Shown one piece after another: positions 30,511 through 57,728 of a DNA stretch of 64,000 nt. The position numbers and the translations under genes were made by a program. The notes under the pieces are model-generated. The model did no database searches and had not been told where the DNA came from. It saw only the letters and a program-made list of their open reading frames with translations. How positions within the stretch are numbered: the first letter of the stretch is position 1; each line of letters opens with the position of its first letter. The stretch is from Candidatus Nanoarchaeia archaeon (GTDB lineage: Archaea > Nanobdellota > Nanobdellia > SCGC-AAA011-G17 > JAFCDX01). Where the stretch lies: NCBI GenBank assembly GCA_041651575.1, contig JBAZJB010000001.1:546096-610095 (forward strand). The letters are read 5' to 3'.

Positions 30511-30511
30511 T

Positions 30512-38214: not shown

Positions 38215-38937
38215 TTAACTTATTTGATTTGAACTTTTTAATGCAAATACAAATGCAATGTTTTCATTAGTACATGGATTTTTAATATTTTGCACATTAC
38301 ACTTTATTAAACTATCGCTTTGTATACATTGTAAGTTACTACTCTGAGAACATACTTCAAAAGATTTGGAAGATAAACAGGTTTTAAGTTTATATGCCTC
38401 ATCTATAATCTCTTGTATTTTGGTTGTATCTGCATTAATTTCTGTATTAAAGTTTATGTTTAATTTGTAAGTTATATCCATTTTTTCTTTCATTTCTTGT
38501 AAAGTTAATGAATCTGCAACGGCTTTAATTTTAATTTTATTTCCATAATCTAAAGTAAAAGTATATTTATAATCTGTTTTAACTCTTTCTTTGAAATTAT
38601 TTTTAAATTCTGATTCGAAATATTCGCTAAAAATAGGGTTGCAATTAGGAGTAAAATCCCAAACCATATGATTTCCTACAAGACAATTTGGATTATTTAA
38701 CAAACCTTTTTCTAAACTTATTTGTAAAGCATTACAAGCAGCAAGTTTTGCATTTTCTTGTATTGAAAAAACCATATTTTCTTTTTCTGTATAAAAATTA
38801 ATTAATTCTGTAGAAAACATACCTACGTTTTTTTGTTCATCTTTTATAATATCACTATAAAAAATCCCCAAAAATATTACTGTAAAAAGAAAAGCAAATA
38901 TTGCTAATAGGGGTAAAAATATTCCTTTCTTATTCAT
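38215..38937 (-). CDS. Pilin-like protein (class III signal peptide)
   Basis: N-terminus MNKKG/IFLPLLAIFAFLFTVIFLGIF; last gene of the pilus-like operon. Confidence 0.5.
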   Translation of the reverse strand: MNKKGIFLPLLAIFAFLFTVIFLGIFYSDIIKDEQKNVGMFSTELINFYTEKENMVFSIQENAKLAACNALQISLEKGLLNNPNCLVGNHMVWDFTPNCNPIFSEYFESEFKNNFKERVKTDYKYTFTLDYGNKIKIKAVADSLTLQEMKEKMDITYKLNINFNTEINADTTKIQEIIDEAYKLKTCLSSKSFEVCSQSSNLQCIQSDSLIKCNVQNIKNPCTNENIAFVFALKSSNQIS

Positions 38938-39434
38938 TCTATCACCAACTTTATTTTTATTTCTTTATCAAAATCGGGTAAATTGAATTCAGAAGAAGTT
39001 GTTTTATCTGTTTCTATTATTCCGCCTAATTCTGCAGGTGTTCCAAAATCTTCGCTCATTGCTACTTTTCCCTGAGAAATTATTTGATTATCTATGTACA
39101 AGTTATATTGATCAAATAGTTTATTGAATATCTTCTGGTTTATACCTTCTAAATTTGTTCTATATTTTTCTTTGTTTTTAACATACATTCTTATTAAATC
39201 GGAAACTAAAACTTCTTGTCCTTCAACATTTACCGGTGTTCTTAAATAATTTAATAAAATACTGTTAACATCTATTTTTTCTTTAGCAAGAATTTCTTGT
39301 TTAACAGAATCAATTCCAAAAGAGAATATAAAAAATATAATTAGTGTAACAAATATTAAAATTATAGCTCCAAGATTATAAAAAATCATACCTATTCCTT
39401 TTTTCCCAATTTTATCAAGTTTAAACATTTTCAA
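38934..39434 (-). CDS. Pilin-like protein (class III signal peptide)
   Basis: ...GKKG/IGMIFYNLGAIILIFVTLIIFFIF; overlapping gene boundaries. Confidence 0.5.
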   Translation of the reverse strand: MKMFKLDKIGKKGIGMIFYNLGAIILIFVTLIIFFIFSFGIDSVKQEILAKEKIDVNSILLNYLRTPVNVEGQEVLVSDLIRMYVKNKEKYRTNLEGINQKIFNKLFDQYNLYIDNQIISQGKVAMSEDFGTPAELGGIIETDKTTSSEFNLPDFDKEIKIKLVIE

Positions 39435-39897
39435 ATATCACGTCATAATTTAAAATAGCCCCTTGTTTTTTATTATCTTTTACTAAAAGAACATAATCCT
39501 TTTTTTCATAAAAAGTATATTTCTCGTTTTTTATTTTTATATTTTTTAAATTTTTATTTAAATCATATTCTTTTTTATTATAATAAGTATCAATTTTTTC
39601 TCCGTTAAGAGTTTCTATAGTTATATTTAGTTGCAGATCTTCATTATTGAAACAAGATTCTATTAAAGGAAATTTATTTGCATCTATTATTCCAAAATTA
39701 TTTCTTTCATCTTCATAAGATAAACAAGAATAAGCTTTATACAAAACAAGTTGGGGTTCATATTCAGAAACATCTATATTTCTTGTTAAAAAAGTCCAAG
39801 TTATTGAAGCAAATATTACTAAAATTACTGCTAAAACCAATATATTAAATGCCCATACAGGAATATCTATATCTAAGGAATCTCCTTTTTTATTCAT
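39421..39897 (-). CDS. Pilin-like protein (class III signal peptide)
   Basis: MNKKG/DSLDIDIPVWAFNILVLAVILVIF. Confidence 0.5.
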   Translation of the reverse strand: MNKKGDSLDIDIPVWAFNILVLAVILVIFASITWTFLTRNIDVSEYEPQLVLYKAYSCLSYEDERNNFGIIDANKFPLIESCFNNEDLQLNITIETLNGEKIDTYYNKKEYDLNKNLKNIKIKNEKYTFYEKKDYVLLVKDNKKQGAILNYDVIFENV

Positions 39898-40283
39898 GAT
39901 ATTGAAACCTCGTTATTTTCTTTTTTAATGGTTATAATAGGAGTTTTAGCTTCTTTTTCAACATTGGAATTAAAAAAACATTTATATGAAGAAGGAGTTC
40001 TTGAATAAACTTTTTCACTTGATTCATAAATTTGAAGCAAACATGGTTTTTTTATGTTCAAAACATAATCTGAACTATCAAAATTAATTTTTATAGAAAT
40101 ATCATTTGGACTTGCTGAAACTGCATCCAAAGCAAAAGCAGATTCTATAGCTAAATATTTTTGTTTAAATAATTGATCTTCTGCTATTTTCACTGATAAT
40201 CCCACAAATGCTCCAAGAATTAATATTGCAAGAAACATGTACGACAGCCACAAGTACTGCATCTCATACCCTCTTTTATTCAT
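39894..40283 (-). CDS. Pilin-like protein (class III signal peptide); start taken at internal Met MNKRG
   Basis: MNKRG/YEMQYLWLSYMFLAILILGAFVGL. The listed ORF extends to 40349 and would overlap the upstream gene. Confidence 0.5.
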   Translation of the reverse strand: MNKRGYEMQYLWLSYMFLAILILGAFVGLSVKIAEDQLFKQKYLAIESAFALDAVSASPNDISIKINFDSSDYVLNIKKPCLLQIYESSEKVYSRTPSSYKCFFNSNVEKEAKTPIITIKKENNEVSIS

Positions 40284-40326
40284 AAAAAGAAAAAGATTTG
40301 TTAATTTATAATGGTTTTGATTACAC

Positions 40327-41982
40327 CTAACCAAAATATTGATTTGCATATTTTGTTCTTATTCCGATATCTCTCTCGGGCTTAGCTGGATTTTCTATGT
40401 TTATCACAAACCAAGCCACCCATTCATTTCTAGTTTTTTGTTTTACTATTTCAGTGCCATAAAAAGTTTTTAAATAAAATACCATAAATTCAATTTGTTT
40501 ATTATAATCTAAAAGAGCATTTAATTTATCTTGACTATTTGCATTTTCTAGAGTATAATATTTTAAGAATTGTCTTCCCAAGGCGGTTTTTCCACAAATA
40601 TTATATTGCCATAATCCATAAGAACAATAGTTAGTTGAACCTATTGGACTAGGATCTCCCATATTATTATAAGAAAGAGCAGATTCTCCAACAGCATTTG
40701 CAACCATAGCTTCTGCTAAATTAATATTATTAAATCTAGCATTTATATCATCCCTTAATTGGTTTGCAGAAACATATAATAATTTTGGTTTTTTCACATT
40801 TATGGCCCCGCTACTTTGAGTTTGTGATGAACCTATTTGTGATTGTTCAATTGTAGAAGGAACATAAGTTGTTGAAGAAGCTTGTTGATTTTGTATAGCT
40901 GTAAGTGTTGGAGAATTTTCACAATTAGTACAACTAGGAGAAATTTCATAACCGGAATGAGGCAAATAATTTAATGGATCTCTTTCATAATTAGGTTTAC
41001 CAATATCTGCAGAAAAATCTTGAGATAAATAAACTTTAAAATCTAAATGAGGTCCTTCTGAAAATCCAGTATTTCCTGACAATCCAATAATATCTCCTTT
41101 CGTAACTTGTTGTCCTTCTGTAACTTTAATTTCGGATAAATGATCATATCTTGTGTATAAATTTTCATTGTGTTTAATTATAATATATCTACCATAGCCT
41201 CTGCAAAGTTCTTTATAATCAATATCCTCTTTACCACATATTTCTATTACTGTTCCATCTTCAACAGTTTTAATTTCTGTACCTATAGGAGTTGTAAAAT
41301 CTACACCATCATGCCAATCATTAGTTCTTTGACCATAAGCAGAAAAAATAATTGGATTAGCTAAAGGAAATATACTGAATATTGAAGAGGTAGAAAGAGT
41401 CTCTTCAACAGGTTTTTCTTTATATATAATTAAAACTCCATTTTCTTTTTTGAAATAAATTGTTTTAGAATCTTTGTTATTTTCTGCAGAAATGTAATTA
41501 TCTCCAAAACCAACAAAATCTATTTTTTGTATATTTTTTAAAATATCTACTAATTCTTTTTTTCCACAATAATAATTATCTGTACAATAATATCCCTCTC
41601 CTTTTTTCTCAACTTCACAAACACAAAGTTTAGATTTACCTAAAATTTCATTACTCATTTCAGTAGAAGTTATCTGTAAAGAAAGGTCTGCTTTAGAAGG
41701 ATAAAAACCAGCAAGAATGCACTCTTTATTTTCAAAATATACTATTGTCTCTTTTATTTTATTTTCTTCAAGAATATTTATATCATTTAAAAGAATATTT
41801 AAAGCACTTGTTGTTTGATCATCCATGCATGCTTGAAAAGGTATTGTTGTTTTGTATAAATTACAAGAAGTAGTAATAAAAAATAATAAGAGTATAAGTC
41901 CTAAAATTAATCCAACTGGAACCTCTTGAAAATTCAATCCTTTTTTCATTTTAATTTTTTGGTATAGTATCTGCTGTTCCAA
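40327..41982 (-). CDS. Pilin-like protein fused to M23-family peptidase and lytic-transglycosylase-like (SLT) domains
   Basis: N-terminus MKKG/LNFQEVPVGLILGLILLLFF (likely start at 41949). M23 core: WHDGVDF (HxxxD)...GNTGFSEGPHLDF. C-terminus GESALSYN...SYGLWQ resembles the SLT catalytic motif E-S...G-L-M-Q. Confidence 0.6.
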   Translation of the reverse strand: MEQQILYQKIKMKKGLNFQEVPVGLILGLILLLFFITTSCNLYKTTIPFQACMDDQTTSALNILLNDINILEENKIKETIVYFENKECILAGFYPSKADLSLQITSTEMSNEILGKSKLCVCEVEKKGEGYYCTDNYYCGKKELVDILKNIQKIDFVGFGDNYISAENNKDSKTIYFKKENGVLIIYKEKPVEETLSTSSIFSIFPLANPIIFSAYGQRTNDWHDGVDFTTPIGTEIKTVEDGTVIEICGKEDIDYKELCRGYGRYIIIKHNENLYTRYDHLSEIKVTEGQQVTKGDIIGLSGNTGFSEGPHLDFKVYLSQDFSADIGKPNYERDPLNYLPHSGYEISPSCTNCENSPTLTAIQNQQASSTTYVPSTIEQSQIGSSQTQSSGAINVKKPKLLYVSANQLRDDINARFNNINLAEAMVANAVGESALSYNNMGDPSPIGSTNYCSYGLWQYNICGKTALGRQFLKYYTLENANSQDKLNALLDYNKQIEFMVFYLKTFYGTEIVKQKTRNEWVAWFVINIENPAKPERDIGIRTKYANQYFG

Positions 41983-42127
41983 TAATGTCTTTTACAATAT
42001 TTCCTAGTTTTAAAATTAATTTAGAAATATTTCCTCCAAAAAATATTATAACTATTGCTAAAACAATTAAAAAAAGAATTACAACAACTATAGTATTAAT
42101 TGGTAATTCCTGTGATTTTTTATTCAT
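41951..42127 (-). CDS. Small pilin-like protein (58 aa, below ORF-track cutoff)
   Basis: MNKKSQELPINTIVVVILFLIVLAIVIIFFGG... Its stop lies 2 nt before the MKKG start of the downstream gene. Confidence 0.4.
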   Translation of the reverse strand: MNKKSQELPINTIVVVILFLIVLAIVIIFFGGNISKLILKLGNIVKDIIGTADTIPKN

Positions 42128-42145
42128 TTTAAAAATAAAAAGGAA

Positions 42146-42505
42146 TTAACAAGCGCCTTCTGCTTCTATTACAGGACAACTCATTCCTAATTTCTTGCAA
42201 GTCAATCCTTTTTCATCAGATCCAATGTTTCCATTACCATTTAAGTCTACATTGAATTTTTGGTTACAGAAGTTATCTCTATAAGCAGTTATTGGATTGT
42301 TTTCGTACTGCATACAATAATTATTACATCTGTTTGTTGCTTCTGGAACATCTGTTAGTTGACTACCAAATAAAGCCTTTATTTTAGTAGTTAAACTTGC
42401 CATCCCACCTGTGAAAAATATTGCAACTATAACTAAAACTATAATTACTATGATAGTTATAATTATAACATCCATAGAAATTCCTTGTCCTCTCTTATTT
42501 TTCAT
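42146..42505 (-). CDS. Pilin-like protein (class III signal peptide), Cys-rich C-terminal domain
   Basis: MKNKRGQ/GISMDVIIITIIVIIVLVIVAIFF; 8 Cys in the globular part. Confidence 0.6.
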   Translation of the reverse strand: MKNKRGQGISMDVIIITIIVIIVLVIVAIFFTGGMASLTTKIKALFGSQLTDVPEATNRCNNYCMQYENNPITAYRDNFCNQKFNVDLNGNGNIGSDEKGLTCKKLGMSCPVIEAEGAC

Positions 42506-42571
42506 TTAATCACCTAAATAAAGACAAAATATAAATATTTAAATGTTTTGATTACACAAAATCAATAAAAA

Positions 42572-43237
42572 TTAGGTACAATAAGGTAATCTACTTGTTG
42601 TAATATAGTTACTTAAATCCTCATCTGCGATAAATTCCCCTGATTGAGATCTACTTACAACAAAACAAATCTGATTATCTTTTTTATAAAAGATTATATT
42701 ATTATAAAAAAAGTAATATTTATCAAATAATCCAGAATCAGTATTTACATTTTCTCTATCTTCTAAGGCTCTTGTAACTTCGTAAGATAAAATAGCTGCA
42801 TTTCCTTTTAAATCTTTTATAGTGCCTTTTTTATCTATATCATAAGATTCTAGATAACAATTCATCGTTTTTCCAGTAAAAAGATTTTTTCCATTTACAA
42901 CAGAACTTTCTAATTGTTCCCATTGACTTCCTTTTCTTTTTTCTAGAGAAAGTATTCCTTTAGTTACAACAATTCTATAATTTATAGAAAAACTCGGGCC
43001 TACAATTTTACAAACACAATCACTATTTTTAGAATCAAAACAAGTTTTATAATTATTTTTTAAAACTGAAAAATCACTTATAACTTGGGAATCTGTTTTT
43101 GAATCTCCCCCAAGAATTTTATCATAAGCCGTTGTTAATTTGTTAATTAAATTAATAGGACCAAGTAAGCTAACACCTACGATTAAAAGTAATAAAAATC
43201 CCGCCATTATTGTTTTTAGAGTAAAACTCGTTGCCAT
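42572..43237 (-). CDS. Pilus-associated secreted protein (N-terminal hydrophobic helix)
   Basis: MATSFTLKTIMAGFLLLLIVGVSLLG; ATG start at 43237 (the ORF track extends to 43246 via a non-ATG codon). Confidence 0.45.
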   Translation of the reverse strand: MATSFTLKTIMAGFLLLLIVGVSLLGPINLINKLTTAYDKILGGDSKTDSQVISDFSVLKNNYKTCFDSKNSDCVCKIVGPSFSINYRIVVTKGILSLEKRKGSQWEQLESSVVNGKNLFTGKTMNCYLESYDIDKKGTIKDLKGNAAILSYEVTRALEDRENVNTDSGLFDKYYFFYNNIIFYKKDNQICFVVSRSQSGEFIADEDLSNYITTSRLPYCT

Positions 43238-43238
43238 T

Positions 43239-43391
43239 TTATCCAAACCCTAATTTTGTAAATATCATTTCAATTATATTATATATTTTTTCTTTTCCCA
43301 TCCAAACCAAACCCAATAAAATAAAAAAAATTATTAAGGCTAAAACTAATTTTACTAATTCAGATACTTCAATTTCTCCTTTTTTGTTCAT
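43239..43391 (-). CDS. Small pilin-like protein (50 aa, below ORF-track cutoff)
   Basis: MNKKG/EIEVSELVKLVLALIIFFILLGLVW. ATGA overlap with the upstream gene stop; 1-nt gap to the downstream start. Confidence 0.45.
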   Translation of the reverse strand: MNKKGEIEVSELVKLVLALIIFFILLGLVWMGKEKIYNIIEMIFTKLGFG

Positions 43392-44212
43392 TGACATATT
43401 TTTTTAACCTCTTCAGAATTAAAAATAAATACTCCTTGATAAGCTTTTTCATGGTATATTGTTGTTCCAATAGCTGTAGGTATTGCTGCCATAAAACCTC
43501 CCAAAATAGCTCCGGGTCCTGACCATGAAGTTGCTGCTGTTCCAGCAACAAAACCAGCAACAAAAGCTTCACCTAAAAATATTAATCCTTCTTTATTTGT
43601 TAATTGTTCCCAACCAGGATTAAGTTTTGCTATGTAATAAATATAAACAGGTTTATTCAAAGGAACTTTATCTAAGTTTCCAAGATCTTTTATATTTAAA
43701 TCTTGAGAAATTGGATTTTTTGAACTAGTAAAATATTGTAAATAAGTTTGGTCTCCTGCAGGAATTTTTGTATCTTTCAAATAATCCCATAAATTTACTT
43801 GTCCATTTGTTAAATCTTCAGAAAAATCAATTTTTGAACATAAAAAACAATTAAGACCATAACGATTAAAACTAAATTTTTTTAAGAAGTTTATTTTTCC
43901 TTCCCCAAATTGATACCAACAATTATACATTTCAGTAGCAATCGTCTTTTCTACTTTATGTGGAGTAGATATTTTATCTATAAACACTGGATTTGATTTA
44001 CAAAATAAAGGAGTATTCATAAATTGCCCAACACCTACACTATTTAATCTTGCCTTAAACTCTACGCTTATTTTACATAATGCCACATTGGAAACTGAAA
44101 AAAGTCTTGGTCCTAAAGTTACAGTTAAAACAAGAATTAAAATAACTGTTGCCATTAAAAGCACGGCTAATTTTACTACAGTTTCATGAGTCATCCCTTT
44201 TTTATTCAACAT
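43388..44212 (-). CDS. Pilin-like protein (class III signal peptide), 274 aa
   Basis: MLNKKG/MTHETVVKLAVLLMATVILILVLTV. Confidence 0.55.
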   Translation of the reverse strand: MLNKKGMTHETVVKLAVLLMATVILILVLTVTLGPRLFSVSNVALCKISVEFKARLNSVGVGQFMNTPLFCKSNPVFIDKISTPHKVEKTIATEMYNCWYQFGEGKINFLKKFSFNRYGLNCFLCSKIDFSEDLTNGQVNLWDYLKDTKIPAGDQTYLQYFTSSKNPISQDLNIKDLGNLDKVPLNKPVYIYYIAKLNPGWEQLTNKEGLIFLGEAFVAGFVAGTAATSWSGPGAILGGFMAAIPTAIGTTIYHEKAYQGVFIFNSEEVKKICQ

Positions 44213-44331
44213 TAATTTCCCCCCAAAAAAAGAGTAGATATATCTGTTTTATACATCATCAATATTATTATTCCTGCTATAACTATTAAAAACACTAATA
44301 AAAATATTAAAAATAATAAAGTATCATTCAT
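44212..44331 (-). CDS. Tiny single-TM peptide (39 aa), doubtful
   Basis: MNDTLLFLIFLLVFLIVIAGIIILMMYK...; TAATG overlap with the downstream pilin gene. Confidence 0.25.
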   Translation of the reverse strand: MNDTLLFLIFLLVFLIVIAGIIILMMYKTDISTLFLGGN

Positions 44332-44365
44332 AATTATTCATAAGTTTATTAATATATAAACTTTG

Positions 44366-46426
44366 TTAACCTCCAGAGGTTATTGAACTTGCTATTGCTG
44401 AACTAGATAATATTGTTGAAGATAATAAATTAAATATTAAAATAACTATCAAAGCCAATATGAAGTATAGCATAGTCCCTCTTAACAAATTTTTACCTAG
44501 CAAATATTTTTCATTTAATTTATCTGGACCATTTTCAATACCATTTGCTAATATTGTTAAAATAAATATAACTTCTACAACATAAACACCAACAACTAAT
44601 TGGAAATAAAATGAAGGAATTATATCTTGTACTTTAAATAAATTAGCAACCATAGCAATATTTCCACCCATAGTTTCTTGTGTAGCACCTGCACCGACTT
44701 TAGTAAACAATTTTTCCATGTTTACAATTATTCCAGTAATCATAGATCCAATACCGACAACAATTCCAGCTATAACTGGGGCCATAAAAGAAATTTGAGA
44801 TTTCATAGAAGAAACTATTTCTGTTAATAAATCTTTTAATCTTTCATTTACTCTATGGATTTCATCAACGTAATTTGAAATGCTAATCAAAGATCTTGCA
44901 GCAACTCTTGGACCTTTTTTAACACTCTCTAATAAAACCTCCATAGAAGATTGAACTAATGTTGAAGGATAAGATAAAATTGCTCCTGTTTTTTCATTGA
45001 AAATTGCTTCTTTTAAATTCATTCCTAAATTTCTTATATTAACGCTTACTATTCTGAAAAAATCTCCTGTTGGAGTATTAGACATATTTTGTGCTACTGT
45101 ACCTACTGCCAATTCTGCAGGAATTCCATCTTCAAGTCTATTTCCTAATTGGAATAATGAAGAAGCAAATTCTTTTTCAAGAGATTTAGTTTCTTCTCTC
45201 ATTTTAACTAAATCTTTTGCTTGATTTTTATAATAAATTGATAAACCAAATGCTAATCCTAATGGGAAAAATAAACTCATTAATGCTGCACCTAAACCAA
45301 ATGGCCCACAAGCACCATCGCATCTATAATCCAAAACATTTCCCATTTTTTCTGTAATTAAATAATCTTGTTCTGGAGAAATATAATGTAAAAACAAAGG
45401 TAATATTCCTATAAAACAGAATAAAATTATAATAATTGCTGGAAAGAATTTTGATTTTTTTTCTTTCAACATATCTTGTTCTATTGAAGATTCTCCATAA
45501 CCTGTAGGTCTTTTACTAAGAATATCATAACCAAAAGTAAATACTGCTAAAGGCAATATAATGTTGTAAAGTAAAGCTAGATGATACCATTTTACTATTC
45601 CTCCCATAAAAGAAGAAACTAATGGAAATATCACCAGCCCTAAAATTGGTAAAATTACCCCAAGCATATGTAACATTGTAATTGGATTTTTTAATTCTTG
45701 AGCATAATGCAACATTTTTTCATAAGTTCCGTTTAACATTACTTCAAGAGCTTTGTCAAGTAATTGTATTCTTCTTTCTTCAGAAGGTTCTAATAAAGAA
45801 GATTCAATTAAATGGAATGAATTTACAAATTCTAAATTATAATCTCTCCAATTTTCTAAATAAGAATTTAAAGATTCTTTTATTGTAGAATATCTTCCTG
45901 TTTCAATATCCCAAAAAACTTTTCTAAAATCTAAAGATAATGGTGACCCTATATGTTCTGTTGCGAATTTAATTGCGTGTTCCAAATTTGAAGTATGACG
46001 CATGTACATAACAATATATAAAACACAAAGAACCATTTGATTAGAAGCTTTTAATCTCCATCTATTTGCAAGATAAATTGGAGCATTTGATAAGGGTTTT
46101 AAAATAACTGCGGCAAATATAATTAATATCAATGGAAAAAATACCATTGTTGTTCCTGCTTCTTCAGATAATCCTGTTTCTTCATCAATGGCTCCTTCTG
46201 AAGGATTTGATAATAAATAAGAACCTGCCATTAAAGTAATTGCAAACAATACAAGAATTATTGCAGCCAAAACAGCCAAACTTGTTGCACCATTTGGACT
46301 AATGTTTAAATGAGTTGTTTCTATTGCTTTTTCTAATTTTGGTCTAGTTTCTTCATTAGGTTTTATTGTAATTATTTTTTCTGCAATATTACATAAAGAC
46401 TCGTATCTAGAAGAAGTTTTTGGCAT
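44366..46426 (-). CDS. Type IV pilus / archaellum platform membrane protein (TadC/FlaJ/GspF-like)
   Basis: 686-aa polytopic membrane protein with two cytoplasmic helical domains; sits between the ATPase and the pilins. Confidence 0.65.
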   Translation of the reverse strand: MPKTSSRYESLCNIAEKIITIKPNEETRPKLEKAIETTHLNISPNGATSLAVLAAIILVLFAITLMAGSYLLSNPSEGAIDEETGLSEEAGTTMVFFPLILIIFAAVILKPLSNAPIYLANRWRLKASNQMVLCVLYIVMYMRHTSNLEHAIKFATEHIGSPLSLDFRKVFWDIETGRYSTIKESLNSYLENWRDYNLEFVNSFHLIESSLLEPSEERRIQLLDKALEVMLNGTYEKMLHYAQELKNPITMLHMLGVILPILGLVIFPLVSSFMGGIVKWYHLALLYNIILPLAVFTFGYDILSKRPTGYGESSIEQDMLKEKKSKFFPAIIIILFCFIGILPLFLHYISPEQDYLITEKMGNVLDYRCDGACGPFGLGAALMSLFFPLGLAFGLSIYYKNQAKDLVKMREETKSLEKEFASSLFQLGNRLEDGIPAELAVGTVAQNMSNTPTGDFFRIVSVNIRNLGMNLKEAIFNEKTGAILSYPSTLVQSSMEVLLESVKKGPRVAARSLISISNYVDEIHRVNERLKDLLTEIVSSMKSQISFMAPVIAGIVVGIGSMITGIIVNMEKLFTKVGAGATQETMGGNIAMVANLFKVQDIIPSFYFQLVVGVYVVEVIFILTILANGIENGPDKLNEKYLLGKNLLRGTMLYFILALIVILIFNLLSSTILSSSAIASSITSGG

Positions 46427-46566
46427 TAATTCCGCTCTAAATTCTTGGTATTCATGAGAAAATTTTATAGGAGTATCAACATCTTCTGTTTCTATTTTTC
46501 CTTTTAATAATTCTTCATATCTTTCAATTATCTTTTCTGTTTCTTTATCCGCTATACTCCCACCTC

Positions 46567-48873
46567 TTATATCTCAGACTTTTCAAATGTTTTTTGTTTA
46601 ATATACTTTTTCAATTCATCTTCCCATCTAAAAAATATTTTTTTATCATCTAATTTTCCAGTTTCTGTTCTTACGTCGCTTGAAATCTTATGAAATATAT
46701 CATTAAATAAAACTACTGTTTCTGATTCTAATAAATCAGGCATATTGGTTATTTTAGAATATTTGACTAAGGTTTCTTTTAATTTTGCTCTTAATAAAAT
46801 ATTATTCCACACCGCATCCCAATTGCCTGCCCATTCTTTTATGTTTCCAGCTATTGCTTTTACAATTTCAGATTCTCCATTTATCAAAGCATCTGTTGGT
46901 TGCAAAGAATCTGTTTTTGAATCATATTTCATTAAATCTACAAATCCATTTTCTTTTAGAGGATCATCTTCCCATTCTTTTCTTACTTCAGTAATTTGAG
47001 TTATTCTTCTCCATTTATGCATTCCATCTGGGCTCCTTATTGGATTACAAATAATTATTATATCTGTAGCTTTGAAACTAGTTCTAGGAACTTTTAAATC
47101 ATTTACAACTCTATCAAAAACACCATAAGGACTATCTCCATGAATTGTTCCTGCTACAACATTAGCAAGAGCACCGACACGCATTGCTTCATACAAAGCT
47201 AAAGCTTCTGTGCTTCTAATTTCTCCAACTATCAAAGAAGAATCTCCCATTCTTAATGAAGTTCTTATACCTTCATCTGCTGCAATTTCAGAAGATTTTC
47301 CCATTAAAGCAGCTCTAACTTTCATAGGTTGAATATTATATCCTAAATCTCTTAATTTATCTGTGCTCAATTCAAAAGTATCTTCAACAGTAATTATTCT
47401 AAATTTTCTCATTATTTCTAATAAACAAGAATCTAAAAAACTAGTTTTACCAGAACCTCTTGTACCTGCAACTATCATTGTCCTTGCTCCATCAATTAAA
47501 AAACTAATTAAACCAGCTGCCAAAGGAGATAACATTCTATTTTCAATATACAAAGGTAAAGTCCAAGGCTTATCTCTGTGTCTTCTTAATGAAAATGCTA
47601 GACCAGATGGATTTAAAGGTCTAGTAATTATTGCTACTCTGTTTCTTGAATTTGGAAGAGTTAATTCTGTATCTAAAACAGGATTTGCTTCATCCAAAGG
47701 TCTTCCAGATAATAATCTAAATTTAGTTGCCCAACCTTCTCCATCATCTAAACTAGGATAAATATTTGTAACACATTCATCATAATCTGAATGAACGATA
47801 AAAATTGGAGTTTGTCCTATAGGCCCATTAATAGAAATATCTTGAACTTTTTTATCATTCAATAAAATTTCTATTAATCCAAATCCTACAGTATATCTAA
47901 CTAAAATATCTGCAAGCTCTTCTATTTCATTATAAGAAATCTCTATTCCTCTATGAGTCGCTAATTCAGTAAGTAAATCTTTTCCTATATTGAAAAAAGT
48001 TTTTCTTATTCTTTCTGGATCTACGAATTCTTCTGCTTTTGGTTTGTGTTCTGACAAAACAGATTTTGCTAAAGTTAATAACATATATTTATCTTCAGAA
48101 ATTTTAAATTCTGGAGGTTCTAAATGATATAATAATTTTATATCTCCAGGAGTTCTAAAAATTGTTACATTTGTTTTTGCATCCACAGAATAAGCATCTA
48201 TTTCTTCTCCATTCAAAGGAGGATCTGCCATTAATCTTGTATACATAAAATCAGGAGTGATAACTGCTCTGAAAATTTTTCTATAAACATCTCTCGTACC
48301 TACTTGATATCCATCAATGTAAGGTTTTGCCATTGCAATTAATTTTGTTTTGTCTAAAAAATTCTTTACTAAATTCAGTAAATTCATATAATGTTGTCTA
48401 CATTCCGAACATTTTGGAATAGTTGTTTTTCCTTGTAAAATTGTTTCTTCTCTAACTAACCTTTTTAATTCTACGTAAGCACCTATTGGATCTGATCTTA
48501 ATAAATTAAGAATAATATACTGAACTTGGGATAATCTTTCAGGCAAGCAAGTTGTACATTCTAAACTAGTTCCCATCGCACCTAAAGATAATATTTTTTT
48601 CTGTTTTAAAAAATAATTATGTATTGTAGCAATTTCTAATAACATTGAAGTATTATCAAAACTATATTCGTAATTTTTTCCATATTGAGAAAAAACAATT
48701 TTGTGCACGCTAGGATTTTGCATTAAATATTCTATTGTTTTAGACATACAAATATCACTATCTTCAATTGAAGGAGAAAAAGGATAATTATTATAATTCA
48801 TCCATATAATTTCTTCATTACCTTCTTTTATTACTTCGTAATCACCTGGTTTTGTTTTCTTGCTAAATAACAT
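46567..48873 (-). CDS. Type II/IV secretion-system ATPase (FlaI/TadA/VirB11 family) with ~250-aa N-terminal extension
   Basis: Walker A AGTRGSGKTSF, Asp/Walker B box SSLIVGEIRSTEA, and a His box. Confidence 0.85.
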   Translation of the reverse strand: MLFSKKTKPGDYEVIKEGNEEIIWMNYNNYPFSPSIEDSDICMSKTIEYLMQNPSVHKIVFSQYGKNYEYSFDNTSMLLEIATIHNYFLKQKKILSLGAMGTSLECTTCLPERLSQVQYIILNLLRSDPIGAYVELKRLVREETILQGKTTIPKCSECRQHYMNLLNLVKNFLDKTKLIAMAKPYIDGYQVGTRDVYRKIFRAVITPDFMYTRLMADPPLNGEEIDAYSVDAKTNVTIFRTPGDIKLLYHLEPPEFKISEDKYMLLTLAKSVLSEHKPKAEEFVDPERIRKTFFNIGKDLLTELATHRGIEISYNEIEELADILVRYTVGFGLIEILLNDKKVQDISINGPIGQTPIFIVHSDYDECVTNIYPSLDDGEGWATKFRLLSGRPLDEANPVLDTELTLPNSRNRVAIITRPLNPSGLAFSLRRHRDKPWTLPLYIENRMLSPLAAGLISFLIDGARTMIVAGTRGSGKTSFLDSCLLEIMRKFRIITVEDTFELSTDKLRDLGYNIQPMKVRAALMGKSSEIAADEGIRTSLRMGDSSLIVGEIRSTEALALYEAMRVGALANVVAGTIHGDSPYGVFDRVVNDLKVPRTSFKATDIIIICNPIRSPDGMHKWRRITQITEVRKEWEDDPLKENGFVDLMKYDSKTDSLQPTDALINGESEIVKAIAGNIKEWAGNWDAVWNNILLRAKLKETLVKYSKITNMPDLLESETVVLFNDIFHKISSDVRTETGKLDDKKIFFRWEDELKKYIKQKTFEKSEI

Positions 48874-48946: not shown

Positions 48947-49300
48947 ATGCCTGAGGTGACCATAACAGCAGAAAATGTTCTAGCAGATTTAAATGCTAGA
49001 ATAAGAGTTCTAGAAGAAAAGCAGAACATTTTAAGAGAGAAATTACTTGTAGTTAATCAAAATATGCTAGAAGAATATAAAAGGCTTATACAAGAAATAA
49101 AGATTATAAACACCGATTTAAGAGATTTAAAAGAAGATTTATCAAATAATAAAGAAATGATGAGGCATTTTATAAAAGAAATGGAAAATTTCGCTAGAAA
49201 AGAAAATTTATTAATTTTAGAAAAGTATATTAAGTTGTGGGACCCTATGAAATTTGTAACTGAAGAAGAGGTTATAAAACTAGTAAAAGAAAAGAGGTAA
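48947..49300 (+). CDS. Coiled-coil protein, divergent from pilus ATPase
   Basis: 117 aa, heptad-rich. Confidence 0.4.
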   Translation: MPEVTITAENVLADLNARIRVLEEKQNILREKLLVVNQNMLEEYKRLIQEIKIINTDLRDLKEDLSNNKEMMRHFIKEMENFARKENLLILEKYIKLWDPMKFVTEEEVIKLVKEKR

Positions 49301-49303
49301 ATA

Positions 49304-49876
49304 ATGGCAAACGAATTCAGGGACATAAAAGAAGGTGTAGCAAGAAGTTCTGATAATCCTGGAATTAGTGGAATGCAACCATCTATGTTACCTAAAGAAG
49401 AAATTACAATGGCTGAAGAAGAAGCACCTTCTGCAGAACCAGAACTTCCAGAAGAAGAAGTTGAACAACCTATTGAAGAAGATATTCCAAATACTCCTTT
49501 GATACCTACAACCTCTGTTCCAATGGTTGAACAACCAAGAAGAGATTTCCAAGAACAAATAGAAGAAATTACAGAAGCAGTAGTTAATGAAAAATGGGAA
49601 GAGTTAATGACCAATGTTGGAAATATTGCCATATGGAGAGAAAAAATTAATACAGATGTAAGATCAATAAAACAAGAAATAATAAGAATTGAAGAAAGAT
49701 TTGGAAGTTTACAAAATGCAGTCATTGGAAAAGTAGAAGATTATCATCAAACTATGACAAATGTTGGAGCAGAAATGAAAGCTCTTGAAAAAGTTCTTGA
49801 AAGAATAATGCAACCTTTAGCAACAAACATCAGAGAATTAAATAAAATAACAGAAGATTTAAAGAAGAAAAAATAA
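49304..49876 (+). CDS. Acidic coiled-coil protein
   Basis: 190 aa, Glu/Pro-rich N-terminus then a coiled-coil C-terminus. The antisense ORF 49057-49725 is judged spurious. Confidence 0.4.
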   Translation: MANEFRDIKEGVARSSDNPGISGMQPSMLPKEEITMAEEEAPSAEPELPEEEVEQPIEEDIPNTPLIPTTSVPMVEQPRRDFQEQIEEITEAVVNEKWEELMTNVGNIAIWREKINTDVRSIKQEIIRIEERFGSLQNAVIGKVEDYHQTMTNVGAEMKALEKVLERIMQPLATNIRELNKITEDLKKKK

Positions 49877-50401
49877 TTATTTACTTCCTATTTGATGTCC
49901 GACAAATCTTACAGTTAAAGAAGCAATTATTAATAAAAATATAGCTCCAAGGGTTCTTGGGTGAAATAATGTTCTTAAGGTTTCAGAACCGATAGTTTTA
50001 GTTGTATTTCCTACAGTTTGATAAGGAGTAAAAACATCTCCAAATACTTGGGTTAATCCAATTAATAAAATTAAAAAAGCAATTATCATTACTGTCCATA
50101 CACTCAAATTATTCCAAATATCTTGTTCTTTTATTCCAAAGTGCATTAACACTCCAAATAATAAAATTAAAAATATTGCAATGAAAACAAACCAAGGAAT
50201 AACATAATTAATTAAATCAACTATTGAAGCAGTAAATAAAGTTATCATAGCGACAGAAAATGCAGCTATAAATTTTAATGCATTATTTTCTCCAAGGATT
50301 TTTGTTTTATCCAATAAAGCATACAATCCTGCAAATATAAACAAGAAAGTAAAAATTGGTAAAAAATAATTCAATAATCCCATATCCATTAAGGTTGCCA
50401 T
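49877..50401 (-). CDS. Paralogous membrane protein 1 of 3 (tandem family)
   Basis: Shares an N-terminal motif (YLLPFLLVF.I.FALLEK.KILG) with the next two genes. Confidence 0.5.
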   Translation of the reverse strand: MATLMDMGLLNYFLPIFTFLFIFAGLYALLDKTKILGENNALKFIAAFSVAMITLFTASIVDLINYVIPWFVFIAIFLILLFGVLMHFGIKEQDIWNNLSVWTVMIIAFLILLIGLTQVFGDVFTPYQTVGNTTKTIGSETLRTLFHPRTLGAIFLLIIASLTVRFVGHQIGSK

Positions 50402-50404
50402 TTT

Positions 50405-50950
50405 TTAACTTTTTCCAAAGAAAGCTTTTACCATATCTTTTGCTGGACTTTCGTTTTTTGGTTTTCTAGTGAACATTGCTACAACGACTACAATAGTAAC
50501 TATTAAAATTATCCAAGCTTTATCTTCATCTGTTGGATGGAACCAAGTAGGCATATATATTCCTGCACTTGGTGAAATTGCCCAAATTATTCCAAGAATA
50601 CAAACTATTAAAGCAATTATCATTGCTATTCCACCCCAATCTCCTGCATAATCAGAACCAAACATTCCCAATACTAATAAAAACATTAAAATAACTATTA
50701 TCATCAAAGAAACTTTTGGTAAAAATTGATTAATTAAATAAACTATTTGTGGTTGTGCTATTAACAATGCACCCATTGCAAAAGAAACAACAACATTAAT
50801 ATTTGTTTTTGGATTTTCTTCTTTATCTTTTCCCAAAATTTTTAATTTTTCTAATAAAGCAAAAATAATTGAGAATACTAATAGGAAAGGAAGTAAATAT
50901 TCGTATACTCCCATTGCTTGTAATGATTGAAGTGTTGAAGCTATGCTCAT
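50405..50950 (-). CDS. Paralogous membrane protein 2 of 3
   Basis: See paralog 1. Confidence 0.5.
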   Translation of the reverse strand: MSIASTLQSLQAMGVYEYLLPFLLVFSIIFALLEKLKILGKDKEENPKTNINVVVSFAMGALLIAQPQIVYLINQFLPKVSLMIIVILMFLLVLGMFGSDYAGDWGGIAMIIALIVCILGIIWAISPSAGIYMPTWFHPTDEDKAWIILIVTIVVVVAMFTRKPKNESPAKDMVKAFFGKS

Positions 50951-50961
50951 TTTTCCTCTTT

Positions 50962-51540
50962 TTAATCTTCTTTTTTATTTGGCTTAAAACCAGTTACATA
51001 TAAGATTGCTCCTATAATAACGGCTAATAAGATTATACTTGAAACTGCTGATCCTCCCCAATTTCCCATAACATAATTATATGCTTGTTCAAGCCAAGAA
51101 CATTCTTGACCAGAAGTACAATAAGGAGATTCACCTAATATTGAAGACATAAATATAATTATAACTCCTGCAAACATCCCTATTGTAAAAATATAATAAA
51201 AGGTTGTATGTTTCTTTTTCAAATCAAATTCATCTGTAGTTGCAAATACTCCAATCATCAATAAGAAACTAATTGAAATCATAACTAATAAAATTATGTT
51301 TGGTAAAGCTAAATTTAATGCAGTTACAACTCTATTGCTTGCAACAACTAATAAAGCAATAACAAAAGCAACCATAGAATCAAGATTTTTCTTTGGTTTC
51401 TTATCTTCTGCACCTAAAATCATAGTTTTTTCTAAAATTGCAAATACAATTGTGAAAACTAATAAGAAAGGTAATAATATATCAAATAAGCCAAATGATT
51501 TAAAAAATTCAATGGCTCCTGCCAAAGGTGAATCTGCCAT
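50962..51540 (-). CDS. Paralogous membrane protein 3 of 3
   Basis: See paralog 1. Confidence 0.5.
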   Translation of the reverse strand: MADSPLAGAIEFFKSFGLFDILLPFLLVFTIVFAILEKTMILGAEDKKPKKNLDSMVAFVIALLVVASNRVVTALNLALPNIILLVMISISFLLMIGVFATTDEFDLKKKHTTFYYIFTIGMFAGVIIIFMSSILGESPYCTSGQECSWLEQAYNYVMGNWGGSAVSSIILLAVIIGAILYVTGFKPNKKED

Positions 51541-51624: not shown

Positions 51625-51960
51625 TTAATCCAAATCTTCTTTTATTTCAGAATTTCCGCCGTCTTCCATCGATGGAATTGCTGTTTTTGAAATTATCATT
51701 ACTTGATCTATTGCTTTAACAAGTGGATGTGGAACTATAACTCCTTTTGCACCACCAAGCATTTTAGTCAATAATGAACCTTTTGTTGCTCTTACACGCC
51801 AACCAGCAATTTTATTTCCTTGTAAAATTGATTCTTCTACAACTCCAAAGAAAGAACCTTCATCAGTGTAAACTCCCATTTCAAAAAGTTCTGTTACGTT
51901 TCTGACTCTTAACATTTTATTCCTCCTTATTAATCCTTTATGAGTGGATACTAATGGCAA
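51625..51960 (-). CDS. PRC-barrel domain protein
   Basis: Small beta-barrel protein; the start may be the internal Met (MLRVRNV) at 51915. Confidence 0.45.
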   Translation of the reverse strand: MPLVSTHKGLIRRNKMLRVRNVTELFEMGVYTDEGSFFGVVEESILQGNKIAGWRVRATKGSLLTKMLGGAKGVIVPHPLVKAIDQVMIISKTAIPSMEDGGNSEIKEDLD

Positions 51961-51991
51961 ACTTTTTAAGTTTATATAATTTTCCTTTTTA

Positions 51992-54927: not shown

Positions 54928-54988
54928 GTAATTACTATTAAGTGATTAAAATAGAAAGGTTTATAAATAATATTTGAATAGCTAAGTT

Positions 54989-55792: not shown

Positions 55793-55807
55793 AAAAAGAG
55801 AAAAGAA

Positions 55808-56146: not shown

Positions 56147-56155
56147 ATATCTTTT

Positions 56156-57697: not shown

Positions 57698-57728
57698 GAT
57701 TTATTAATTCTTTAATTTTATTATAAAT

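What the first reader, a model, noticed from the sequence alone, without database searches (positions are those of the whole stretch)
38215..48873. Compact type IV pilus-like locus with about ten pilin-like genes, several below standard ORF cutoffs
The minus-strand operon opens with a FlaI/TadA-type ATPase (Walker A AGTRGSGKTSF, Asp box IVGEIR) that has an unusual ~250-aa N-terminal extension. Next comes a 686-aa TadC/FlaJ-like polytopic platform protein. After it lies a dense run of genes each starting with the [KR]G followed by a hydrophobic-stretch prepilin motif (MNKKG, MNKRG, KRGQ, MLNKKG). They are tightly coupled through ATGA/TAATG overlaps. Three tiny members (41951-42127, 43239-43391, 44212-44331) fall below the 60-aa ORF cutoff. 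No archaellum accessory genes (FlaC-H) are present, so this is an adhesion or interaction pilus rather than a motility organelle. In host-associated DPANN-type archaea such pili are candidates for partner attachment.
Basis: partly seen in the sequence, partly recalled or inferred. Interest (0 to 1): 0.7.

Follow-up and report, generated by a model that had tools for sequence, protein, structure and literature searches.

The report
Woesearchaeal pilus locus with wall-cutting pilins
This is a real type IV pilus-like gene cluster of a tiny DPANN (Woesearchaeota) archaeon. One of its pilin-like proteins carries enzymes that cut bacterial cell walls, which suggests the filament is used against bacteria.

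Summary
The minus strand at 38215-48873 carries a 768-aa secretion ATPase, a 686-aa polytopic protein and eleven small proteins anchored at the N-terminus. Nine of these start with M-(N)-K-[KR]-[GAS] followed by a hydrophobic helix.

The organism is a Woesearchaeota/Nanoarchaeia archaeon. The ATPase, with its roughly 225-aa N-terminal domain found only in this lineage, is conserved at 57-79% identity in at least 576 species genomes.

The three tiny ORFs are conserved in position and form in relatives.

- The conserved unit extends upstream to 51540. It adds two divergently oriented coiled-coil genes and three paralogous membrane proteins.
- The 540-aa "pilin" is a murein hydrolase: peptidase M23 plus a weak lysozyme-like tail, fused to a conserved minor-pilin-like module.

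M23, SLT or glucosaminidase modules on pilin-like N-termini occur in 8 of the roughly 23 related clusters I looked at.

No prepilin peptidase was found in the 84 kb examined.

Coiled-coil-associated type IV pilus loci in DPANN are already published, as are murein hydrolases in Woesearchaeota. I did not find their physical fusion described.

Verdict: a new variant of a known kind, of moderate to high interest.

The parts
50962..51540 (-). Conserved accessory membrane protein (192 aa, about 5 TM), first of three tandem paralogues
   Evidence: tblastn hit in 49 of 80 related loci, always in the order m192-m181-m174 upstream of the ATPase. The three are paralogous. No Pfam family.
50405..50950 (-). 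Conserved accessory membrane protein (181 aa), second paralogue
49877..50401 (-). Conserved accessory membrane protein (174 aa), third paralogue
49304..49876 (+). Coiled-coil protein (190 aa), divergently oriented from the ATPase
   Evidence: Only weak coiled-coil family hits. Conserved next to the ATPase in 55 of 80 loci. Probably the 'CCP' genes of DPANN type IV pilus loci in PMC11291902.
48947..49300 (+). Coiled-coil protein (117 aa), divergently oriented from the ATPase
   Evidence: Conserved in 58 of 80 loci. The homologue in L072 gives a sub-threshold FlaC_arch hit, E 0.006.
46567..48873 (-). Long-form secretion ATPase (768 aa): lineage-specific N-terminal domain (aa 1-227), FlaI/GspE/TadA-like core (aa 228-704), C-terminal helical tail
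   Evidence: Pfam T2SSE 1.6e-15. NCBIfam FlaI 121 bits and TadA 112 bits, both far below cut-off. Profile against PDB: afGspE 2OAP 1.5e-29, CpaF 2.4e-27, FlaI 6e-16. The N-terminal domain folds confidently (pLDDT about 85) and has no PDB match. It occurs only at the N-terminus of this family: 291 clusters among 1.84 billion representatives. TATA-like box at -24.
44366..46426 (-). Platform protein (686 aa), a highly divergent GspF/PilC/TadC/FlaJ homologue with two cytoplasmic helical-bundle repeats (about aa 115-244 and 400-540)
44212..44331 (-). 39-aa single-helix micro-protein, first gene of the pilin cluster
   Evidence: Counterparts of 34-41 aa sit directly after the platform gene in many loci, most with an MKKG/MNKRA start and a G(V/G)LKNV(F/G)-like end. 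TATA-like box at -29.
43388..44212 (-). 274-aa pilin-like protein (MLNKKG) with an extra Gly-rich hydrophobic region near the C-terminus
   Evidence: tblastn hits in 23 loci at the same position. TM prediction.
43239..43397 (-). 50/52-aa pilin-like micro-protein (MNKKGEIEV...)
   Evidence: A 50-54-aa class with the motif 'KKG(D/E)xxWExI(A/G)K' is conserved at this position. Weak DUF7554 and Flp1_like hits.
42572..43246 (-). 224-aa N-terminally anchored protein
   Evidence: Counterparts of about 200 aa with an MNKKG/LNKKA start at the same position in L006, L009, L022 and L061.
42146..42505 (-). 119-aa candidate major pilin (MKNKRG|QGISMDVIII...), with six conserved Cys and a DxDxDG loop
   Evidence: In a 20-sequence alignment K4, G6 and several Cys are invariant. 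It has its own TATA-like box at -30 and an AGGTG at -10. In a profile search of PDB, three of the four hits are pilins, at non-significant E-values of 0.31-10.
41951..42127 (-). 58-aa pilin-like protein (MNKKS|QELPINT...), a short paralogue of the 119-aa gene
   Evidence: A 58-66-aa class lies directly after the p119 class in relatives.
40327..41949 (-). 540-aa modular pilin-like murein hydrolase: MKKG leader and helix, Cys-rich minor-pilin module (about aa 30-195), peptidase M23 (aa 205-320), Ser/Thr/Gln linker, possible lysozyme-like domain (aa about 410-540)
   Evidence: Pfam Peptidase_M23 9.6e-26; Phage_lysozyme2 4e-4, below cut-off. NCBIfam murein endopeptidases. PDB matches to ShyA, zoocin A, lysostaphin and LytM. 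The HxxxD motif and catalytic His are present. HxH is replaced by HLD, and this variant recurs in an archaeal clade. The N-terminal module is homologous to stand-alone 176-200-aa proteins at the same slot.
39894..40283 (-). 129-aa pilin-like protein (MNKRG start)
   Evidence: Counterparts of 129-132 aa at the same position. TATA-like box at -29.
39421..39897 (-). 158-aa pilin-like protein (MNKKG)
38934..39434 (-). 164/166-aa pilin-like protein (…IGKKG)
38215..38937 (-). 240-aa pilin-like protein (MNKKG|IFLPLL...), last gene of the cluster
   Evidence: Its class carries M23 domains in other lineages: P0248 at E 1e-5, and L082 and L083.

Best explanation
The locus encodes a type IV filament machine that is conserved across Woesearchaeota.

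Shown:
- A hexameric-type secretion ATPase with an N-terminal domain restricted to this lineage.
- A platform protein that is GspF/PilC-like in predicted fold.
- Eleven small genes whose products share a very short basic leader (consensus M-N-K-K-G) followed by one hydrophobic helix.
- One of them is fused to an M23 murein endopeptidase and a possible lysozyme-like domain.
- Comparable murein-hydrolase modules sit on pilin-like N-termini in about a third of the related clusters examined.

Inferred:
- A prepilin peptidase encoded elsewhere cuts after the Gly or Ala.
- The ATPase and platform extract the helices from the membrane and polymerise them into a surface filament or short pseudopilus. 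The 119-aa and 58-aa proteins are the bulk subunits.
- The larger proteins act as minor or tip subunits. The hydrolase is thereby held at the filament or cell surface, where it opens the peptidoglycan of a bacterial partner or prey during attachment.
- The two coiled-coil proteins and the three paralogous membrane proteins upstream are accessory parts of unknown role.
For: Core machine:
- ATPase family and motifs.

Synteny:
- The order m192-m181-m174 / cc190, cc117 / ATPase / platform is kept in 49-72 of 80 related genomes.
- Closer relatives, including the complete genome AR20, also keep the same order of pilin-like classes.

Pilin-like leader:
- 6-11 leader-bearing ORFs lie within 8 kb of the platform gene in 18 loci.
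- Over 167 ORFs the leader statistics are: -1 G 124, A 33, S 10; -2 K/R (required by the selection); -3 K 131, not imposed by the selection; leader mostly 4-7 aa.
- The motif is strongly enriched in the locus compared with the rest of the window.
- K and G are invariant in the 119-aa class at 32% mean identity.

Hydrolase:
- M23 scores 90 bits against a cut-off of 28.7, with catalytic residues present.
- The HLD variant is conserved in P0242-45, P0249 and P0250.

Pilin-like hydrolase fusions in related clusters:
- L084: glucosaminidase + M23, same slot.
- L011: SLT + M23.
- L052: M23.
- L082: M23.
- L083: SLT and M23.
- L002 and L010: degenerate M23.
- The hydrolase is an add-on to a conserved minor-pilin-like module.

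Literature:
- Coiled-coil-associated type IV pilus loci occur across cluster 2 DPANN, including Woesearchaeota, and several proteins of the Nanohaloarchaeum antarcticus loci, including the coiled-coil proteins, were detected in proteomic data (PMC11291902).
- Murein hydrolases are common in Nanoarchaeota and kill bacteria when tested in haloarchaea (PMC12352652).
- Bacterial hosts have been proposed for Woesearchaeota and Pacearchaeota (PMC8204110; PMC9723730).
Against: - No prepilin peptidase (Peptidase_A24) was found in the 64-kb window, in 20 kb of flanks or among polytopic ORFs of related loci.
- No pilin-like protein reaches the threshold of any pilin family: Class_IIIsignal in 1 of 20 at E 0.033, Flp1_like E about 0.1, Arch_flagellin E 3.5.
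- The residues after the putative cut are often polar (Q, E or D at +1; the hydrophobic run starts on average at about +4). This differs from the usual archaeal class III pattern.
- No structure was predicted for any pilin-like protein.
- The second Zn ligand of the M23 domain is Asp, not His, and activity is untested.
- The lysozyme-like assignment is below threshold (20.9 against 28.2 bits).
- Two relatives carry catalytically degenerate M23 domains, so binding rather than cutting may be the selected function there.
- About half of the related loci have no pilin genes next to the ATPase and platform.
Confidence: 0.65

Rival explanations
1. The machine is a surface-display or secretion device like a bindosome or a type II secretion pseudopilus, not a long pilus. 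It processes proteins with class III-like leaders and anchors or releases them at the envelope. The murein hydrolases then serve to digest free bacterial cell-wall debris for nutrients rather than to attack a living partner.
For: - Many different leader-bearing proteins with enzymatic or large globular domains, rather than one dominant pilin.
- Archaeal TFF machines functionalised with leader-bearing binding proteins are documented (bioRxiv 10.64898/2026.04.22.720090).
- Woesearchaeota are predicted scavengers of cell material (PMC9723730).
Against: - The 119-aa and 58-aa classes are small, strongly conserved and have their own promoter-like elements, as expected of bulk filament subunits.
- BasE is only a distant match: 57 bits against a cut-off of 1000.
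- No ABC transporter is linked to the locus.
Confidence: 0.2
2. The small proteins are ordinary membrane proteins with Sec-dependent signal anchors, and the MNKKG start reflects the positive-inside rule and A-rich start regions. The ATPase and platform then act on something else, such as DNA uptake or transfer, or membrane remodelling with the coiled-coil proteins.
For: - No peptidase found.
- No pilin family hit.
- There is a polar spacer after the Gly.
- In about half of the relatives the ATPase and platform stand without adjacent pilin-like genes.
- The ATPase is unusually conserved and hosts inteins in some lineages, as housekeeping genes do.
Against: - Gly/Ala/Ser at -1 and Lys at -3 are far more uniform than a positive-inside bias requires. 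They persist in a high-GC relative, L083.
- The motif is confined to this cluster within the window.
- Order and classes are conserved next to an ATPase-platform pair whose only known substrates are pilin-like proteins.
Confidence: 0.1
3. The locus encodes an archaellum, a rotary motility organelle.
For: - FlaI is the best-scoring NCBIfam model for the ATPase.
- One homologue of the 117-aa coiled-coil protein gives a weak FlaC_arch hit, E 0.006.
Against: - The FlaI score is 121 bits against a cut-off of 550.
- afGspE and CpaF score higher than FlaI in a profile search of solved structures.
- There is no archaellin, FlaF/G or FlaH in the locus or window.
Confidence: 0.03

Closest known systems
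Coiled-coil-protein-associated type IV pilus-like loci of cluster 2 DPANN (Hamm et al. 2024, PMC11291902)
   Same: A CpaF/FlaI-like ATPase and a TadC-like platform lie next to coiled-coil protein genes. These loci are reported in Woesearchaeota, Pacearchaeota, Nanoarchaeota and Nanohaloarchaeota. The window has exactly this core, conserved in 55-72 of 80 relatives.
   Different: The text I could read does not describe the eleven-gene pilin-like cluster, the three paralogous membrane proteins, the roughly 225-aa ATPase extension or any murein hydrolase fusion. Direct homology of the window's coiled-coil proteins to those of Nanohaloarchaeum was not tested.
Euryarchaeal Epd-type and other archaeal adhesion pili (Makarova et al. 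2016 clades, PMC4858521; Sivabalasarma and Albers 2026)
   Same: Several short pilins of about 60-130 aa with a [KR]G leader, an ATPase and a TadC-like platform. The peptidase is often encoded elsewhere.
   Different: - The platform is a single 686-aa protein invisible to T2SSF models.
- The ATPase is 250 aa longer.
- Pilin N-termini do not match Class_IIIsignal or Pilin_N models.
- Woesearchaeota were not in the 2016 census.
Modular type IV pilins and pilus-assisted predation or episymbiosis in bacteria (Streptococcus sanguinis modular pilins, from my own knowledge; Bdellovibrio, Vampirococcus and Saccharibacteria pili, cited and PMC11623550)
   Same: A pilin N-terminus carries a functional C-terminal module. 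Small-celled episymbionts or predators use type IV pili to engage a bacterial host.
   Different: Here the organism is an archaeon without murein of its own. The modules are murein hydrolases (M23, SLT, glucosaminidase, lysozyme-like) rather than adhesin domains.
Archaeal peptidoglycan hydrolases that kill bacteria (PMC12352652) and large SLT proteins of Woesearchaeota and Pacearchaeota (PMC8204110, PMC9723730)
   Same: M23 and SLT domains of bacterial type occur in Nanoarchaeia. The presumed target is bacterial peptidoglycan.
   Different: Those proteins are described as secreted modular enzymes with cell-wall-binding domains, or as giant extracellular proteins. They are not described as pilin-like fusions inside a type IV pilus locus.
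Lytic transglycosylases and M23 proteins encoded in bacterial pilus, secretion and flagellar loci (for example BfpH, VirB1, FlgJ; from my own knowledge)
   Same: A murein hydrolase gene embedded in a filament-assembly operon.
   Different: In bacteria the enzyme opens the cell's own wall for the machine. In an archaeon presumed to lack murein (not tested here) that role is not available.

Membership tests
Type IV filament (TFF) superfamily machinery | Secretion ATPase of the GspE/PilB/FlaI/TadA family with Walker A, Asp box, Walker B and His box | tested here: met
   Pfam T2SSE 57 bits against a cut-off of 24.9. The motifs GTRGSGKTS, ITVEDTFEL, DSSLIVGEIR and AGTIHGDSP can be read in the sequence. 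Profile against PDB gives afGspE 1.5e-29 and CpaF 2.4e-27.
Type IV filament (TFF) superfamily machinery | Polytopic platform protein with two GspF/PilC (T2SSF) cytoplasmic domains | tested here: met
Type IV filament (TFF) superfamily machinery | Filament subunits with a class III signal peptide: short basic leader, Gly/Ala at -1, then a hydrophobic helix of about 20 aa | tested here: inconclusive
   The pattern is present, conserved and specific to the locus. No pilin family threshold is reached. The PDB profile hits to pilins are not significant. No structure was predicted.
Type IV filament (TFF) superfamily machinery | Prepilin peptidase (Peptidase_A24: FlaK, PibD, EppA) | tested here: inconclusive
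   None in the window, in the 10-kb flanks on either side or in polytopic ORFs of 80 related loci. The remaining roughly 360-680 kb of the genome could not be read.
Type IV filament (TFF) superfamily machinery | An assembled extracellular filament | not testable with these tools
   Needs microscopy or proteomics.
Archaellum | FlaI equivalog together with archaellins (FlaA/B), FlaF, FlaG, FlaH and FlaJ | tested here: not met
   The FlaI model scores 121 bits against a cut-off of 550. Arch_flagellin E 3.5. No KaiC-like FlaH and no FlaF/G in the locus or window.
Tad/Flp pilus | TadA/CpaF equivalog, TadB and TadC, Flp pilin, TadV peptidase | tested here: not met
   TIGR03819 scores 112 bits against a cut-off of 373. 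Flp1_like gives only E 0.098 on the 52-aa protein. There is one fused platform protein, not a TadB/TadC pair.
Sulfolobus bindosome (Bas) | BasE ATPase and BasF, with leader-bearing sugar-binding proteins | tested here: not met
   BasE scores 57 bits against a cut-off of 1000. No substrate-binding protein or ABC transporter in the locus.
Peptidase M23 (LytM/lysostaphin-type murein endopeptidase) | M23 domain above the family threshold | tested here: met
   90.3 bits against a cut-off of 28.7. PDB matches to ShyA 4e-15, zoocin A 7e-14 and lysostaphin 1.6e-10.
Peptidase M23 (LytM/lysostaphin-type murein endopeptidase) | Zn-binding and catalytic motifs HxxxD, a middle His, and HxH | tested here: inconclusive
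   HDGVD and YDHL are present. HxH is HLD, so the Zn-ligand His is replaced by Asp. The same HLD occurs in six archaeal homologues, while two others keep HLH. This argues for a functional variant, but activity is untested.
Phage tail lysozyme (PF18013) | Domain above the family threshold | tested here: not met
   20.9 bits against a cut-off of 28.2, E 4e-4, covering profile positions 20-137 of 140. No PDB sequence match to this region. It remains a lead only.
DPANN cluster 2 CCP-associated type IV pilus-like locus (PMC11291902) | Coiled-coil protein genes adjacent to a CpaF-like ATPase and a TadC-like platform in a cluster 2 DPANN genome | tested here: met
   Architecture: two coiled-coil ORFs are divergently oriented from the ATPase and conserved in 55-58 of 80 Woesearchaeotal loci. 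Sequence homology to the published coiled-coil proteins was not tested.

The most novel reading that the evidence does not exclude
Woesearchaeota assemble a type IV filament whose minor subunits are modular pilins armed with murein hydrolases (M23, SLT, glucosaminidase, lysozyme-like). The filament would then be a contact-dependent tool for breaching the cell wall of bacterial hosts or prey. This would be the first pilus-borne cell-wall-degrading apparatus in archaea. It would also be direct genomic evidence that these DPANN archaea live on bacteria rather than on other archaea.
Probability: 0.35. Interest if true: 0.8.

Novelty: new variant of a known kind. Interest (0 to 1): 0.58.

Why it matters
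Woesearchaeota and Pacearchaeota are among the most abundant uncultivated archaea, and their hosts are unknown. All cultivated DPANN archaea live on other archaea.

A conserved surface machine that repeatedly recruits enzymes specific for bacterial peptidoglycan points to bacterial partners. It also names the proteins to test: the 119-aa and 58-aa subunits, and the M23 fusion.

The platform protein family has more than 4000 members, and none of those listed carries a domain annotation or a functional name. This work gives it a fold-level assignment. Current model-based censuses of archaeal type IV filament systems, which require a recognisable platform protein, may therefore miss this whole system.

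Tried and rejected
- Sequence-model identification of the platform failed with Pfam, NCBIfam, a PDB profile and per-member Pfam scans. Only structure prediction resolved it.
- The AlphaFold model of the ATPase from a 13-sequence alignment was poor in the catalytic core (pLDDT 59.7). I used it only for the N-terminal domain and for coarse matches.
- The afdb50 fold library was unavailable.
- Searches for a prepilin peptidase found nothing. I tried a GxGD-type regex over the window and over all loci, Pfam on polytopic ORFs, and extending 10 kb past each window edge.
- Local jackhmmer with the M23, middle and C-terminal parts of the hydrolase found only L011. A four-sequence HMM recovered L002, L010 and L052.
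- The shared 13-mer GTGTAATCAAAAC upstream of two pilin genes is not found in relatives, and matches with up to two mismatches are only marginally more frequent than chance. I kept it as a side note only.
- I considered the three upstream paralogous 5-TM proteins as possible peptidase substitutes. They have no conserved Asp pair and no A24 signal, so I dropped the idea.
- I rejected the archaellum reading (see rivals).

Full report
**1. What is in the sequence**

The window has about 27% G+C. On the minus strand between 38215 and 48873 the ORF list shows a 768-aa protein, a 686-aa protein and eleven smaller ORFs. These are packed with gaps of -8 to +66 nt.

Every small product has one predicted hydrophobic helix at its N-terminus. 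Nine have a [KR][GAS] dipeptide just ahead of it, typically as M-N-K-K-G.

A six-frame scan of the whole window for this leader plus a hydrophobic run returns 11 hits. Eight are these genes, one is internal to the 686-aa gene, and only two lie in the other 53 kb.

Minor corrections:
- 'IVGEIR' is the Walker B motif, not the Asp box.
- The 551-aa ORF most likely starts at MKKG (540 aa), as the gene caller on the source contig also has it.
- The 151-aa ORF most likely starts at MNKRG (129 aa).

**2. Source and relatives**

The ATPase occurs with exactly this sequence on a 447.5-kb contig of ENA assembly ERZ27247363. An identical platform protein is recorded in an NCBI 'Candidatus Nanoarchaeia archaeon' MAG on a 766-kb contig.

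Homologues of the ATPase, about 760 aa long and 57-79% identical over their full length, carry the source names Woesearchaeota, Nanoarchaeota or Pacearchaeota. A scan of one genome per species found at least 576 genomes with a relative, and the 80 best are almost all labelled Woesearchaeota or Nanoarchaeia. The flanks hold archaeal housekeeping genes: FtsZ, SepF, Spt5, ribosomal proteins and the PolD small subunit. The DPANN guess is right.

**3. The ATPase**

Pfam T2SSE matches aa 412-599. The NCBIfam FlaI model aligns to aa 228-704 at 121 bits, far below its cut-off of 550, and TadA scores 112 bits against 373. A profile of 13 family members against all PDB sequences ranks Archaeoglobus GspE (1.5e-29) and CpaF/TadA (2.4e-27) ahead of FlaI (6e-16). 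Foldseek on the model gives the same families.

The first 227 residues are extra. They are conserved in the family and fold confidently (pLDDT about 85), with no match in the PDB. A full HMMER pass over 1.84 billion representative proteins found this domain in only 291 clusters. It is always at the N-terminus, and the full-length hits are 730-915 aa or carry inteins. The extension is thus a hallmark of this ATPase family, not a peculiarity of this genome.

**4. The platform**

The 686-aa protein has no hit in Pfam, NCBIfam or PDB sequences, even as a profile. It has more than 4000 homologues. None of the 120 listed carries a Pfam domain, and those that a source names are called hypothetical. 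Per-member Pfam scans gave T2SSF in 2 of 18 at E 0.056. hhalign against a bona fide T2SSF protein from a second system in L072 gave 72% probability over 46 columns.

The model shows two helical-bundle repeats (about aa 115-244 and 400-540), each followed by transmembrane helices, as in PilC, GspF and FlaJ.

**5. The pilin-like genes and the tiny ORFs**

tblastn of the window proteins against the 80 related loci shows a conserved gene order: 274-aa, 52-aa, 224-aa, 119-aa and 58-aa classes, then a variable large gene, then 129-, 158-, 164- and 240-aa classes, then an RPA-like gene and YdjM. The closer relatives keep this order, including the closed genome AR20.

An independent motif search found 6-11 leader-bearing ORFs within 8 kb of the platform gene in 18 loci, and 0-2 in a second group of loci. 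Across 167 such ORFs:
- Position -1 is G in 124, A in 33 and S in 10.
- Position -3, which the selection did not constrain, is K in 131.
- Position -4 is N in 66.
- The leader is mostly 4-7 residues.

The three sub-60-aa ORFs have clear counterparts:
- A 34-41-aa gene directly after the platform gene.
- A 50-54-aa class with the motif 'KKG(D/E)xxWExI(A/G)K'.
- A 58-66-aa paralogue following the 119-aa class.

The 119-aa class keeps K and G of the leader, the helix up to 'FFxGG', six cysteines and a DxDxDG loop across 20 sequences of 32% mean identity. In the window it also has its own TATA-like box and an AGGTG. I take it as the candidate major subunit.

Its profile, searched against the PDB, returns four sequences, three of which are pilins: the archaeal 8FJS, the Geobacter 9EGP and the Pyrobaculum 6W8X. 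The E-values are only 0.31-10. No pilin-like protein reaches a pilin family threshold. The residues just after the Gly are more polar than in the usual archaeal class III pattern. 'Pilin-like' is therefore well supported by pattern, conservation and context, but it is not proven.

**6. The hydrolase fusion**

The 540-aa protein contains a peptidase M23 domain: Pfam 9.6e-26 at 90 bits, NCBIfam murein endopeptidases, and PDB matches to ShyA, zoocin A, lysostaphin and LytM. HxxxD and the middle His are present. The HxH motif reads HLD. The same HLD is found in six archaeal homologues, while two keep HLH, which suggests a functional variant. A C-terminal domain gives a sub-threshold match to phage tail lysozyme (E 4e-4).

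All close archaeal homologues start with the same kind of leader.

Related hydrolases occur inside related clusters:
- In L084, whose ATPase is 77% identical, the same slot holds a 713-aa glucosaminidase + M23 protein.
- L011 has SLT + M23.
- L052 has M23.
- L082 has an 806-aa M23 protein in the last slot before the RPA-like gene.
- L083 has a 499-aa SLT protein and a 795-aa M23 protein.
- L002 and L010 have M23 domains that have lost catalytic residues.

That makes 8 of roughly 23 clusters examined.

The first roughly 190 residues of the fusions align with stand-alone 176-200-aa proteins at the same slot in AR20 and others, sharing an 'LCxCE…C…C' motif. The 240-aa class is the N-terminal module of other M23 proteins (P0248, E 1e-5). 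The hydrolase modules are thus add-ons to at least two conserved minor-pilin-like classes.

**7. The locus is larger than reported**

Upstream, two coiled-coil ORFs on the plus strand (48947-49876) and three paralogous membrane proteins of about 180 aa (49877-51540) accompany the ATPase and platform in 49-58 of 80 loci. This holds even where no pilin genes are adjacent. None has a family assignment.

**8. The missing peptidase**

No Peptidase_A24 signal was found in the window, in 10 kb on either side or in polytopic ORFs of the related loci. In archaea the peptidase is commonly encoded apart from pilus loci (PMC4858521).

**9. Comparison with what is known**

- Hamm et al. 2024 reported two conserved type IV pilus-like loci with coiled-coil proteins, a CpaF-like ATPase and TadC across cluster 2 DPANN, including Woesearchaeota. 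Several proteins of the Nanohaloarchaeum antarcticus loci, including the coiled-coil proteins, were detected in proteomic data. The core of the present locus fits that description, so the core is known.
- The archaeal TFF classifications (PMC4858521; bioRxiv 10.64898/2026.04.22.720090) do not describe a Woesearchaeotal long-ATPase system in the text I could read.
- Murein hydrolases in Nanoarchaeota or Woesearchaeota, and the idea of bacterial hosts, are published.
- I did not find any description of these hydrolases as pilin-like fusions encoded inside the pilus locus.

**10. Verdict**

- Most likely this is a Woesearchaeota-wide type IV filament machine whose subunits include modular, murein-hydrolase-bearing minor pilins (confidence about 0.65 for the machine).
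- The use of the hydrolase against living bacterial partners is an inference (about 0.35).
- Novelty: a new variant of a known kind.
- Interest: 0.58.

Noticed in passing
window 23276-32536 (minus strand): A second protein with a class III-like start (MEKRGQVTIYIILGF..., 667/674 aa, 30512-32536) lies directly upstream of a 2168-aa giant protein (24004-30510) and a 243-aa multi-TM protein (23276-24007). None has a Pfam hit. This may be a leader-bearing adhesin module served by the same machine.
   Followed up: partly
homologues P0005, P0006, P0008, P0014, P0032, P0036; P0297, P0309, P0364: Some orthologues of the ATPase are 1264-1783 aa long and carry intein and LAGLIDADG domains (PF14890, PF14528). 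The window's copy has no intein.
   Followed up: no
window 40314-40326 and 42545-42557 (minus strand): The exact 13-mer GTGTAATCAAAAC sits immediately upstream of the TATA-like boxes of the 129-aa and 119-aa pilin-like genes, and occurs nowhere else in the window. It was not found in related loci. It could be a shared promoter or regulator site.
   Followed up: partly
window 51625-53406: A PRC-barrel ORF, a TraB/PrgY-family gene (51992-52672) and a 253-aa multi-TM protein (52645-53406) lie upstream of the machine. The 253-aa protein resembles a site-2 protease ('LVPLPGLEG') but has 'HQIVQ' in place of HExxH. Homologues of it are present in 31 related loci, about 4 kb upstream of the ATPase. 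No Pfam hit.
   Followed up: partly
L072 16300-21511: One relative carries a second, canonical type IV pilus core: a 510-aa ATPase with a PilB3_C domain and two separate T2SSF platform genes (268 and 440 aa), next to a coiled-coil/HTH protein.
   Followed up: partly
window 42146-42505; alignment A4: The candidate major pilin class has a conserved DxDxDG(x)xD loop, of the kind seen in calcium-binding motifs, between conserved cysteines.
   Followed up: no
L025, L034, L047, L051: Four related Woesearchaeotal loci encode prolipoprotein diacylglyceryl transferase (LGT, E down to 5e-79), a bacterial-type lipoprotein enzyme.
   Followed up: no
window 54094-63165: A tyrosine recombinase gene (54094-54927) is followed by about 8 kb of small ORFs with no family assignment. 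The same arrangement is found on a contig from another sample (L086). This could be an integrated element.
   Followed up: no
L010 15353-17674: The 773-aa leader-bearing protein with a degenerate M23 domain also contains a zincin-type 'HELGH' motif near its C-terminus.
   Followed up: no
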